A stretch of DNA of 61,652 nucleotides. Source: a virus. Taxonomy: Duplodnaviria > Caudoviricetes. The stretch covers positions 1-61,652 of the IMG/VR virus record IMGVR_UViG_3300025011_000043; one strand, 5' to 3'. The notes under the pieces are model-generated. The model ran no database searches. It was not told the DNA's origin and saw nothing but the letters and a program-made list of their open reading frames with translations. Of the stretch, positions 14,915-17,423 are shown one piece after another (the first letter of the stretch is position 1; each line of letters begins with the position of its first letter). The position numbers and the translations under genes are program-made.

Positions 14915-15021
14915 TCGGTGTGGCGGGGATCGGTCTGGTAAGTCATGGCGAGGATTGGACAGGACTGGCGAGGTACGGCGGGGCGAGGTATGTTGTGGTG
15001 CGGTTTAATAAGGTATGGTAA
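14915..15021 (+). ncRNA. Guide-like array 2: 21 pentamer units (18 GGH, 2 GTY, 1 AAT)
   Basis: 5-nt periodic GG from 14917 to 15017. Confidence 0.85.
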
Positions 15022-15054
15022 AAATAAACACCTATTAACTTAGGTGTTTATTTT
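15021..15054 (+). terminator. Intrinsic terminator closing the cassette
   Basis: AAAATAAACACCTA-TTAACT-TAGGTGTTTATTTT. Confidence 0.8.
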
Positions 15055-15077
15055 ATTGCAGAGGTAGGTGAAAAAAA

Positions 15078-17423
15078 ATGGCAGTTGGCAGTTTAAATGT
15101 CGATCTCGTTTTAGACACAAGCGACATGATCGCTTCACTTAGACAATCCCAAGAAAATCTAGCAGAATTAGGGCGGCAAGCATCAAGGCAAATGACAATT
15201 ATGAGGTCTGAATTCAATACGGCCACAATGCGCATGGATGAAAATACCGATGCAACGGAACGACTAACAGCACAGCAACAGTATTTAGGACAAAGATTGG
15301 AGCAGCAGCAGTCAGTTGTTGCATTGTTGAATGATACATACCAAAGAACCGTCGCAGTTTATGGCGAAAATTCAGACGCAGCGCAAAGGCTTGCCGTCCG
15401 ACTTGCAAGGGCAACAGAAGAACAGGCTAGAACAGAGCAACAGATCCGGCAAACAAACAGGCAACTACAAGAGCAAGCTGATGCGTCAGAGGAAACCGGA
15501 CGTAGTTGGTCAGGGATGGCTGAAAGGCTGGGCAGCGTCGGGGAAAAAATGTCTACTTTTATCTCACTCCCGATTGCTGGATTTTTAGCTTTGGTAACCG
15601 AGGGGACGAAAGAATTAAGGAAAGAACTTGCTATTTTGGAAACTAATGCTGAGATGGCCGGGGCAAACCTGGAAAAAGTAAACGAGGCCTACAGAACACT
15701 TAATAGTATTCGCGACGACGATTTAGCGGCAAATGGCGAAACGATTAACGAACTCCTGGCCTCCGGTTTTAAAGGCGACGATCTGCAAAAAGCTCTTGAG
15801 GGTGTTATTGGCGCAGGAATAAAATTCAAGGATACACTTAATTTTGAAGGTATAGCTGATGGCATCCAAGAAACCCTATTTATAGGTGAAGCGGCAGGCT
15901 CTTTTCTTGAGTTGCTCGAACGTATGGGAGTAAGTATTGATGAGTTTAACGCCGGGTTGGTTGCAGCGAAAGCTAACGGGACAGAATTGCAATATGTATT
16001 AGATACTATGGCAAACTTAGGTCTGGCTGATACCTATAACGCATATCTAAAGAATAACCAGGCTATGGTTGATGGTGCAAAGGCTACATACGACATACAA
16101 AAAGCAATGGCCGATTTAGGGAAAACGATAGAACCGATTATAACTAAGTTGACGGTTGGTTTAGCTAGTTTAGTAGGATGGTTTAATCAACTACCTACAC
16201 CAGTACAGAATACAGCTCTTGTTTTTGCACTTCTAGCTGCTGCAATGGGGCCGGTGCTTTTTATGTTGGCCCAATTAATAACAGTTATACCTACAATCGC
16301 AGGTTTATTTACGACACTTGCCGGACTCCAAATAACCGGAACACTACTAACCGGACTAAGGCTCATAGTGCTAATGATAACATCTTTCGCATCCGTACTT
16401 TTACCTCAACTTGGTGCCGTATTTACAGCTGTTTTTGCAGGTCTAACGTGGCCTATCGCGGCTGTAGCGGCGGCAATCGCAGCACTGATTTATTTAGGCT
16501 ACGAGATCATTAAAAACTGGGAATCAGTCAAGCAATTCTTTGTAGACTTCGCCAAGGCAATCATGGATATTTTTCCGAGCCTTGGAGAATTATTTTCCAA
16601 AACGCTGCCGGAGCAATTTAACGGTTTTATTAACTGGTTCGCAGAACTTCCGGGTAAAATCGGAAAATATCTAAGCGAATTAGTCACTAATATACCCTAT
16701 TCGATTGGTTATGCCATAGGTGCGGCGGTAAAACTCTTAGCTGATACAGGAGAAAAAATAATACAGTGGTTTAAGGATTTACCCGGAAATATTGCAGACT
16801 CAATGATCGAGTTCAAAAACACTGTAGTTGAAAGCGCAAAGGAATTGGCAAGCGAAACATTAAATTATATCCAAGAACTACCCGGCAGAGTTAAAGATTA
16901 TTTTTCAGAAATGATTGATTCTGCAATACAGGCGGGCAAGGATTTTGTGAATGGTTTTATCGAAAGTATCAAGCATTTACCGCAAAGAATCGAGGAGTAT
17001 TTTCTGAATATCCTGGACAAAATTATCAACTTCATCCCTAACTTAATAGAATCGGCTAAGAAAATGGGCAGCGAGTTTTTGAGAGGATTTAAGGAAGGTT
17101 TGACTGGCGGGGAAATAAAAGTAAATGTAGGTGCTACGTCTGGTGTTAAACTTCCTGGATTAGCCTCCGGTGGGACATTAACATCTACTGGATCAGTTGT
17201 AGTTGGGGAGTATGGGCCCGAAATACTTAATTTACCGCGCGCCGCCTCAGTGACTCCGCTTGAGGTAAAATCGGGACAGACTCCTAGTGCTGACATAGAC
17301 TATAACCGCATGGCTACAGCTATAGCACAAGCATTAACTGGTGCCAAGTTCGTAACAGACATAAACACCGGAACCGTAAAAATGATCGTTGGCGGCATTC
17401 TTAGGAGAGAGGTGCGTAACTAA
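15078..17423 (+). CDS. Tape measure protein
   Basis: 781 aa helical protein, VGSLNVDL N-terminus, hydrophobic middle, W/F-LP repeats, PGLASGG..VVGEYGPE C-terminus. Confidence 0.93.
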   Translation: MAVGSLNVDLVLDTSDMIASLRQSQENLAELGRQASRQMTIMRSEFNTATMRMDENTDATERLTAQQQYLGQRLEQQQSVVALLNDTYQRTVAVYGENSDAAQRLAVRLARATEEQARTEQQIRQTNRQLQEQADASEETGRSWSGMAERLGSVGEKMSTFISLPIAGFLALVTEGTKELRKELAILETNAEMAGANLEKVNEAYRTLNSIRDDDLAANGETINELLASGFKGDDLQKALEGVIGAGIKFKDTLNFEGIADGIQETLFIGEAAGSFLELLERMGVSIDEFNAGLVAAKANGTELQYVLDTMANLGLADTYNAYLKNNQAMVDGAKATYDIQKAMADLGKTIEPIITKLTVGLASLVGWFNQLPTPVQNTALVFALLAAAMGPVLFMLAQLITVIPTIAGLFTTLAGLQITGTLLTGLRLIVLMITSFASVLLPQLGAVFTAVFAGLTWPIAAVAAAIAALIYLGYEIIKNWESVKQFFVDFAKAIMDIFPSLGELFSKTLPEQFNGFINWFAELPGKIGKYLSELVTNIPYSIGYAIGAAVKLLADTGEKIIQWFKDLPGNIADSMIEFKNTVVESAKELASETLNYIQELPGRVKDYFSEMIDSAIQAGKDFVNGFIESIKHLPQRIEEYFLNILDKIINFIPNLIESAKKMGSEFLRGFKEGLTGGEIKVNVGATSGVKLPGLASGGTLTSTGSVVVGEYGPEILNLPRAASVTPLEVKSGQTPSADIDYNRMATAIAQALTGAKFVTDINTGTVKMIVGGILRREVRN

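What the first reader, a model, noticed from the sequence alone, without database searches (positions are those of the whole stretch)
14915..15134. Array 2 decodes, skipping the wobble base, to the N-terminus of a tape measure protein
Seen: NN read as codon positions 1-2 gives SVGSL[NK][IM][DE][LF][QH]L[DE]TG[DE][IM]VA. The adjacent TMP (15081-15134) reads AVGSLNVDLVLDTSDMIA: 13/18 residues compatible, most others conservative, and 9/18 dinucleotides identical. The guide has mRNA sense, so it would pair with the DNA template strand, not the mRNA. Inference: a 2-match, 1-skip code in phase with codons makes targeting insensitive to third-position synonymous escape in a competing phage's essential gene.
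Basis: partly seen in the sequence, partly recalled or inferred. Interest (0 to 1): 0.95.

Follow-up and report, generated by a model that had tools for sequence, protein, structure and literature searches.

The report
Phage VIPR guide aimed at rivals' tape measure
The repeat array is a guide RNA of a VIPR system, a CRISPR-like phage weapon first described in 2026 preprints.

Summary
Array 2 (14915-15004) has 18 NN-GG-H pentamers. Read as codon positions 1-2, it matches resident tape measure (TMP) codons 2-19 at 25/36 bases. That is the best of about 123,000 positions in the window (next best 21; E about 0.004).

bioRxiv 10.64898/2026.04.26.720920 and two companion preprints describe VIPR systems: a Vipr RAMP protein plus YNNGG vrRNAs that read dsDNA by a "1 nt skip rule" with the skip at the wobble base, aimed at competing phages.

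This locus meets the tests for VIPR:
- The 208-aa protein is homologous to SUSP1 Vipr (hhalign 96.7%).
- It folds like Csm3/Cas7.
- An HNH gene, a type II hammerhead and two arrays follow it.
- Only the 1-nt skip gives strong matches.

Cassette-less relatives match better than the resident gene. Array 2 reaches 30/36 at their TMP 5' ends. Array 1 reaches 33/34 inside a rival TMP. No perfect Array 2 target was found.

The cassette is a ~2-kb insertion directly upstream of the TMP gene. Across this HNH clade, guides resemble their cassette's own flanking genes far more often than controls do (11/65 versus 26/2080). That pattern hints at RNA-guided homing.

This scan has already found VIPR-HNH cassettes on other DNA.

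The parts
13082..13321 (-). Cro/C1-type HTH gene at the left edge of the inserted block
   Evidence: Pfam HTH_26, E 5e-20. It lies inside the ~13095-15065 stretch that cassette-less relatives lack.
13368..13396 (+). Promoter-like site (TTGACA-17-TACAAT) upstream of the cassette genes
   Evidence: Consensus scan, 11 of 12 matches. Function not shown.
13858..14484 (+). vipr gene (208 aa, RAMP/Cas7-like)
   Evidence: phrog_4652, no Pfam family. 1207 homologues. hhalign to SUSP1 Vipr: prob 96.7%, E 3.8e-10. AF2 model with pLDDT 76.8 hits Csm3/Cas7 chains, E 1.3e-8.
14462..14752 (+). HNH nuclease gene (vipr-accessory gene), overlapping the end of vipr
   Evidence: Pfam HNH, E 1.1e-6. A homologue sits next to vipr in 29 of 33 loci of this clade.
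14760..14844 (+). Array 1: 17 NN-GG-H pentamers (guide of vrRNA 1)
   Evidence: GG in 17/17 units. Matches rival TMP genes at 33/34 (L044, L046), 31/34 (L045) and 28/34 (L037, L056). The resident gene scores 19/34.
14844..14909 (+). Type II hammerhead ribozyme between the arrays; predicted cut between 14868 and 14869
   Evidence: Rfam RF02276: 36.3 bits (gathering score 37), E 1.4e-5, full model. CGAAAC, GUC and CUGAUGAG were located.
14915..15004 (+). Array 2: 18 NN-GG-H pentamers (guide of vrRNA 2), the finding itself
   Evidence: 30/36 to TMP codons 2-19 of L037, L038, L039 and L043; 25/36 to the resident gene.
15005..15059 (+). 3' tail of vrRNA 2 with a hairpin followed by a T-rich run (terminator-like)
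   Evidence: RNAfold -17 kcal/mol hairpin. The simple terminator scan did not call it.
15081..15134 (+). Resident TMP codons 2-19: the diverged homologue of Array 2's target (69% NN match)
   Evidence: Frame 0 of the 781-aa TMP ORF (15078-17423), which matches PHROG TMP families.
16011..16061 (+). Resident TMP codons 312-328: the diverged homologue of Array 1's target (56% NN match)
   Evidence: 19/34. In frame with the TMP ORF.

Best explanation
The region is a VIPR locus of the HNH-associated kind, carried by a siphovirus-like phage.

One transcript is predicted to carry vipr, the HNH gene and two guide arrays. The type II hammerhead should cut it after 14868 into two vrRNAs. By analogy with the published structures, Vipr protomers polymerise along each array. 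Each protomer buries the GG-H triplet and presents the NN dinucleotide. The NN letters pair with one strand of double-stranded DNA while every third target base is flipped out.

Array 2 therefore specifies an 18-codon site at the very start of a tape measure gene (codons 2-19), with the skipped base on the wobble position. Array 1 specifies a second site about 930 bp into the same gene. The intended targets are TMP alleles of related phages that lack the cassette. The resident allele is a homologue that has diverged below the level counted as a target (69% and 56% NN match). The HNH protein is inferred to cut, or otherwise disable, the bound rival DNA.

Shown here: the family membership, the code, the better-matching natural alleles and the insertion. 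Inferred: transcription, ribozyme cleavage, filament formation, DNA binding and nuclease action in this phage.
For: (1) Code. Only a 1-nt skip gives strong matches. Array 2 scores 25 (own TMP) and 30 (L037, L043). Array 1 scores 33 (L044). With 0-, 2- or 3-nt skips nothing exceeds 22.

(2) Targets. Array 2 reaches at least 29/36 in 10 of 22 fetched TMP-relative loci, some of which are the same contig fetched twice. Array 1 reaches at least 28/34 in 6 of 22, with 33/34 in L044 and L046. All of these sites are in frame with the skip at the wobble base.

(3) No hit in the window reaches 80%, in line with the preprint's control.

(4) Protein. hhalign to the experimentally studied SUSP1 Vipr gives 96.7%, E 3.8e-10, 30% identity over 169 columns including the G-loop. 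Foldseek's top hits are Csm3/Cas7 subunits of type III-A complexes.

(5) Architecture. Period-5 GG arrays lie beside the gene in 30 of 36 fetched loci. An HNH homologue is adjacent in 29 of 33. A hammerhead lies between the arrays here, and a hammerhead core motif lies between arrays in L006 and L025. The preprint names hammerhead-interspersed arrays and HNH accessory proteins.

(6) None of the 22 TMP-relative loci carries arrays. Synteny shows the cassette as an insertion between the tail-chaperone genes and the TMP gene.
Against: No perfect or near-perfect Array 2 target was found: 0 exact matches in viral contigs, 0 for units 1-13 in metagenome contigs, and the best allele is at 83%. How many mismatches this system tolerates is unknown to me.

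Two of the 18 units lack GG, and 4 of 18 carry A where the published consensus has a pyrimidine.

The arrays have 17 and 18 units, against the 9-16 reported for the studied clades.

The hammerhead scores 0.7 bits below Rfam's gathering score.

Nothing here shows expression, processing, binding or cleavage for this phage. The host is unknown.
Confidence: 0.85

Rival explanations
1. Array 2 is an obsolete or decaying guide. Its true target allele is extinct or the array is drifting, so it no longer directs anything.
For: No allele above 83% was found in any collection searched. Two units have lost GG. At units 4 and 14-15 no sampled allele agrees with the guide.
Against: 83% passes the >=80% criterion the preprint used for natural targets. 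The sister Array 1 has a 97% target in the same set of metagenome loci. The preprint notes that internal degeneracy of units is frequent in vrRNAs. Sampling of this groundwater phage group is thin: only 11 TMP homologues turned up among 5.8 billion proteins.
Confidence: 0.08
2. The guide acts on the phage's own tape measure gene. Partial pairing at codons 2-19, just downstream of the cassette, tunes late tail-gene transcription.
For: The best match in the whole window is the adjacent gene's first codons. Published VIPR complexes repress transcription from either strand.
Against: The resident site has 11 mismatches in 36 read positions, and relatives match better. The preprint reports that perturbing NN pairing abolished silencing, and it found no self hits >=80%. 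A self-directed guide next to an intact-looking HNH nuclease would risk cutting the phage's own genome.
Confidence: 0.05
3. The resemblance is chance or a by-product of composition. Alternatively, the array is a cryptic coding sequence with GG inserted in each codon.
For: Removing GG gives a stop-free peptide, SVGSLNIELQLDTGDIVA, that is 11/18 identical to the TMP.
Against: E is about 0.004 for the window, and 1.09 million control positions reached at most 22. Independent relatives score 30/36, and Array 1 scores 33/34. The same GG-removed reading of Array 1 contains a TAA stop (units). By my own count from the table, the fifth letter agrees with the target's wobble base in only 5 of 17 units of Array 1 against L044, so the fifth letter is not coding.
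Confidence: 0.02

Closest known systems
VIPR systems (Vipr protein + vrRNA + vap gene). Reference member: Escherichia phage SUSP1 (NC_028808.2). Sources: bioRxiv 10.64898/2026.04.26.720920, 10.64898/2026.04.26.720927 and 10.64898/2026.10.15.759431.
   Same: A small lone RAMP protein homologous to SUSP1 Vipr. Tandem pentamer guides with fixed GG and variable NN. The 1-nt skip rule with the skip on the wobble base. Targets in competing phages and none >=80% in its own genome. Hammerhead-interspersed arrays and HNH accessory proteins are both named in the first preprint.
   Different: SUSP1 has a DNA-binding accessory protein, pseudoknotted tails and 9-16 units, and it targets a satellite. This locus has an HNH nuclease, a hammerhead, 17-18 units and GG-H rather than strict GG-Y. 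It sits inside the tail module directly beside the gene whose rival alleles it targets. The preprint places the nuclease-bearing types mainly in host defence islands; this one is in a virus record. I could not assign the type number because figures and supplements were not available.
Class 1 CRISPR-Cas backbone proteins (Cas7/Csm3) with crRNA
   Same: RAMP fold with a G-rich loop. The protein is expected to polymerise on the guide and to break the duplex periodically.
   Different: No CRISPR repeat-spacer array was reported in the window by Tandem Repeats Finder. The guide is noncontiguous (2 read, 3 buried) rather than 5 read, 1 flipped. Processing is by a ribozyme, not by Cas6. I did not search for cas1/cas2.
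Free-standing phage homing endonucleases (intron-less homing; recalled examples are T4 Seg and Mob proteins, not from any call)
   Same: A nuclease gene inserted next to a conserved gene. Its recognition site lies in that gene in relatives that lack the insert. The resident allele is diverged at the site.
   Different: Here recognition would be RNA-programmed through Vipr and not by the nuclease protein itself. Neither cleavage nor copying of the cassette has been shown.

Membership tests
VIPR system | Vipr protein homologous to an experimentally characterised Vipr | tested here: met
   hhalign of the 31-sequence family alignment A1 against SUSP1 YP_009199429.1: prob 96.7%, E 3.8e-10, 169 columns, 30% identity. 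tblastn alone did not link them.
VIPR system | Minimal RAMP fold (RRM core, G-rich loop, thumb) | tested here: met
   AF2 model, pLDDT 76.8. Foldseek PDB top hits are Csm3/Cas7 chains such as 6xn3_F, E 1.3e-8, TM 0.54. The GIGDGRSVGYGRF loop is read from the sequence. The thumb was not examined separately.
VIPR system | Tandem YNNGG/GGY-NN pentamer arrays beside vipr | tested here: met
   17 units with 17/17 GG and 18 units with 16/18 GG. Arrays are present in 30 of 36 related loci. Deviation: the fifth letter is A in 10 of 35 units and G in 1, so the motif is GG-H rather than strict GG-Y.
VIPR system | Targets found with a 1-nt skip and not with 0, 2 or 3 | tested here: met
   Period 3 gives 30/36 and 33/34. 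Periods 2, 4 and 5 give at most 22 on the same loci.
VIPR system | Skip base on the codon wobble position of coding targets | tested here: met
   All listed target sites are in frame 0 of the TMP ORFs.
VIPR system | Natural targets at >=80% NN match in other mobile elements, none in the own contig | tested here: met
   Array 1: 97% in L044 and L046. Array 2: 83% in L037, L038, L039 and L043. Best in the own window: 69% for Array 2 and 65% for Array 1 (22/34).
VIPR system | vrRNA expressed, bound by Vipr, and the RNP binds dsDNA | not testable with these tools
   No RNA run was listed for this DNA. This needs wet-lab work.
Hammerhead ribozyme type II (RF02276) | Score at or above Rfam's gathering threshold, with the full catalytic core | tested here: inconclusive
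   36.3 bits against a gathering score of 37, E 1.4e-5, model positions 1-66 of 66. The core motifs CGAAAC, GUC and CUGAUGAG are present. Self-cleavage was not tested.
CRISPR-Cas | Repeat-spacer array with contiguous spacers | tested here: not met
   Tandem Repeats Finder reported no such array in the window. The guides are 5-nt periodic. cas1/cas2 were not searched.
Homing endonuclease element | Nuclease gene inserted beside its recognition site's gene; site intact in insert-less alleles and diverged in the carrier | tested here: met
   A ~2-kb insertion at ~13095-15065 relative to L037, L041, L042, L043 and L056. Guide matches are 30/36 and 28/34 in insert-less L037, against 25/36 and 19/34 in the carrier.
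Homing endonuclease element | Cleavage of the naive allele and copying of the element by repair | not testable with these tools
   This needs co-infection crosses or in-vitro cleavage.

The most novel reading that the evidence does not exclude
HNH-type VIPR cassettes may be RNA-guided homing (allele-drive) elements. Each cassette sits next to a resistant allele of the very gene that its guides target. In a mixed infection the Vipr-vrRNA filament would mark the sensitive allele of a cassette-less sibling phage. The HNH would cut it, and recombinational repair from the carrier genome would copy the cassette together with its resistant flank.

Support:
- In this window both guides aim within 1 kb of the insertion point, at alleles of insert-less relatives.
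- Across the clade, 11 of 65 arrays resemble sequence within 600 nt of their own cassette at E<0.01. Only 26 of 2080 array-versus-foreign-flank controls do so (odds ratio 16, Fisher p 4e-9).
- 9 of those 11 hits are in frame 0 of an ORF of at least 100 codons.
- Two loci were followed up, and insert-less relatives match better than the carrier in both: L019 at 33/36 against 25/36, and L015 at 30/36 against 26/36.

The word 'homing' occurs 0 times in the two VIPR preprints I searched for it. An earlier follow-up of this scan proposed the same reading for one other genome.
Probability: 0.35. Interest if true: 0.8.

Novelty: new member of a known kind. Interest (0 to 1): 0.4.

Why it matters
This confirms that the code can be read directly from a locus.

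The locus itself is a clean natural example with several useful features:
- an HNH nuclease partner;
- a ribozyme between the guides;
- two guides converging on one essential tail gene of sibling phages;
- a resident allele that stays under the targeting threshold.

The wider pattern, in which guides resemble the genes that flank their own cassette, is a testable lead. It suggests that nuclease-bearing VIPRs spread like homing endonucleases. If so, RNA-guided targeting would be linked to selfish gene drive among phages, which bears on how RNA-guided immunity began.

Tried and rejected
Exact-pattern searches for a perfect Array 2 target found nothing. The full 18 units gave 0 hits in viral contigs. 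Units 1-13 gave 0 hits in metagenome contigs. The Array 1 pattern with up to 3 mismatches gave 0 hits in the phage's own record.

The genome-contig scan with the TMP alignment gave only two distant relatives (32-33% identity, in Desulfoscipio geothermicus and Paenibacillus haidiansis records). They were of no use for targets.

Conserved Leu/Ser/Arg codons differ at positions 1-2 in 32-47% of cases across the whole TMP gene between the window and five relatives. The swaps inside the target window are therefore not clearly special.

Localised divergence of the resident target site. In the window the site lies at the 29th-42nd percentile of 18-codon windows against the 3 relatives that match Array 2 at 29-30/36 (60th percentile against L056). 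For Array 1 it lies at the 8th-40th percentile. That is not unusual. In L019 it lies at the 2.6th-5th percentile, which is suggestive only.

A third-letter code was rejected (see the rival explanations).

An Rfam gathering-threshold scan of 11 related loci found 0 families. A motif check nevertheless sees a hammerhead core between arrays in W, L006 and L025. Rfam's cut-off narrowly misses these ribozymes.

Expression: no RNA holder was listed for this DNA.

The simple terminator scan did not call the hairpin after Array 2.

Supplementary tables and figures of the preprints could not be seen. I therefore cannot say which VIPR type this is, or whether this locus is among their 664-667 systems.
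Full report
WHAT IS THERE

Downstream of a 208-aa ORF (13858-14484) and an overlapping HNH ORF (14462-14752) lies a 300-nt non-coding stretch. Written in steps of five, it holds two arrays of the form NN-GG-H. Array 1 has 17 units (14760-14844). Array 2 has 18 units (14915-15004), followed by three poorly conforming units.

Between the arrays Rfam finds a complete type II hammerhead (14844-14909). It scores 36.3 bits against a gathering score of 37, with E 1.4e-5. The predicted cut falls between 14868 and 14869. 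A hairpin with a T-rich tail follows Array 2. The 781-aa tape measure gene (TMP) then starts at 15078 and matches PHROG tape measure families.

CHECK OF THE OBSERVATION

I scanned the 2-of-3 pattern over both strands of the whole window. Position 15081, which is codon 2 of the TMP, is the single best hit at 25. The runners-up score 21 and 20. P(>=25) is 3e-8 per position, or E about 0.004 for the window. In 1.09 million positions of unrelated loci the maximum was 22.

WHAT IT IS

The 208-aa protein has no Pfam family and belongs to phrog_4652. It has 1207 homologues at about 60% identity.

I fetched 36 loci that encode relatives. Thirty of them carry period-5 GG arrays next to the gene. In a non-redundant set, 29 of 33 also carry a homologue of the HNH gene. 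Some loci (L033) have seven arrays separated by a conserved 28-nt element, which looks CRISPR-like.

A literature search found bioRxiv 10.64898/2026.04.26.720920. I read its Results, Discussion and Methods sections 20 and 27. It describes VIPR systems:
- a ~20-kDa ancestral RAMP protein, Vipr;
- vrRNAs made of 9-16 YNNGG repeats;
- recognition of dsDNA in which the NN letters pair and one target base per unit is skipped;
- the skipped base mostly on the codon wobble position;
- targets in competing phages and satellites;
- seven types, some with hammerhead-interspersed arrays and some with nuclease accessory genes, including HNH domains;
- no self hits at >=80% NN match.

A companion preprint, 10.64898/2026.04.26.720927 (abstract and section 6), gives the structural basis. 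Protomers bury G, G and Y, present NN, and a thumb flips out one target base. A third preprint, 10.64898/2026.10.15.759431 (abstract, section 17 and passages), shows the competition with a satellite.

MEMBERSHIP TESTS RUN HERE

- The family alignment matches the SUSP1 Vipr protein by hhalign at 96.7% probability, E 3.8e-10.
- The AlphaFold model (pLDDT 76.8) has Csm3/Cas7 subunits as top Foldseek hits, E 1e-8.
- Only the 1-nt skip produces strong matches. Skips of 0, 2 or 3 never exceed 22.

Small departures from the published clades: GG-H rather than strict GG-Y, 17-18 units rather than 9-16, and two degenerate units in Array 2.

WHERE THE GUIDES POINT

I fetched TMP relatives by protein. That gave 22 loci, some of them the same contig from two collections.

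Array 2 matches codons 2-19 of their TMP genes at 30/36 (L037, L038, L039, L043 and duplicates) or 29/36 (L041, L048, L053). It matches the resident gene at 25/36.

Array 1 matches an internal TMP site at 33/34 in L044 and L046, 31/34 in L045, and 28/34 in L037 and L056. It matches the resident gene at 19/34, at 16011.

All of these sites are in frame, with the skip on the wobble base. None of the 22 loci carries arrays.

That criterion is not met, so the reading stands. Against it, no perfect Array 2 site exists in the collections I could scan. At units 4 and 14-15 no sampled allele agrees with the guide. The true target allele may be unsampled, or the guide may tolerate mismatches, or it may be ageing.

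CONTEXT

Relatives L037, L041, L042, L043 and L056 have this gene order: tail tube, chaperone, chaperone extension, a short spacer, then TMP. The window has an extra block of about 2 kb (~13095-15065) in that spacer. The block holds a Cro/C1-type HTH gene, a strong promoter-like site, two small ORFs, vipr, the HNH gene and the arrays. The cassette is thus an insertion directly upstream of the gene whose rival alleles it targets.

A WIDER PATTERN

For 65 arrays in 33 loci I asked how well each matches the 600 nt flanking its own cassette. Eleven arrays reach E<0.01. In the control, where arrays are paired with other loci's flanks, 26 of 2080 do so (odds ratio 16, Fisher p 4e-9). Nine of the 11 hits lie in frame 0 of an ORF of at least 100 codons; two (L007, L013) do not.

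I followed up two loci. L019's guide matches its flanking ORF at 25/36, but matches relatives without arrays at 33/36 (L142) and 31/36 (L141, L143). L015's guide matches its flank at 26/36 and relatives at up to 30/36.

This fits a homing-like or allele-linked weapon. Neither of the two preprints I searched mentions homing. One earlier follow-up in this scan raised it for another genome. Cleavage and copying are untested, so I keep this as the novel case at 0.35.

TESTS THAT WEAKENED SIDE CLAIMS

Codon-family swaps at conserved Leu/Ser/Arg are common across the whole TMP gene (32-47%). The swaps inside the target window therefore do not demonstrate selected self-avoidance. The resident target windows are not unusually diverged either.

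VERDICT

The kind is already published in preprints of April to October 2026, and this scan has met VIPR-HNH cassettes on other DNA before. This is a new, well-resolved member, with one lead, flank-directed guides, that goes beyond what I saw in print.

Noticed in passing
L033 4610-5309 (duplicate L034): Seven pentamer arrays of GGC-NN units are separated by a conserved ~28-nt element, a CRISPR-like repeat/guide layout. tblastn found no HNH homologue within 2.5 kb of vipr.
   Followed up: partly
L012 10594-10658 against the minus strand near 6923-6961: A 13-unit array matches an ORF of 1519 codons in its own locus at 22/26 (85%). That is above the 80% level the preprint treats as a target and reports as absent from source contigs.
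   Followed up: no
L019 4190-4243 (minus strand): The carrier's copy of the targeted 18 codons is among the most diverged 2.6-5% of windows in a protein that is otherwise 90-93% identical (over the aligned codons) to cassette-less relatives. This hints at local escape or a co-converted flank.
   Followed up: partly
window 13082-13321 (-) and L001 about 5190-5430: A Cro/C1-type HTH gene sits at the left edge of the inserted block. By eye, a similar reverse-strand sequence lies just downstream of the arrays in the 87%-identical relative L001/L025.
   Followed up: no
window 14844-14909; L006 and L025 inter-array spacers: Hammerheads between VIPR arrays fall just under Rfam's gathering score (36.3 against 37 here). 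The gathering scan of 11 related loci, which included L001 (the same contig as L025) but not L006, found nothing. Yet a hammerhead core motif is present between the arrays of L025 and L006.
   Followed up: partly
L015 array 9076-9165 against the L013 upstream flank near 2929: In the control pairings, one locus's guide matches another cassette's flank at 24/36. The two cassettes seem to sit beside, and aim at, the same gene family.
   Followed up: no
L185, L186: The only TMP relatives in the genome collection are at 32-33% identity, in Desulfoscipio geothermicus and Paenibacillus haidiansis records. This is a weak hint at a Firmicutes-type host.
   Followed up: no
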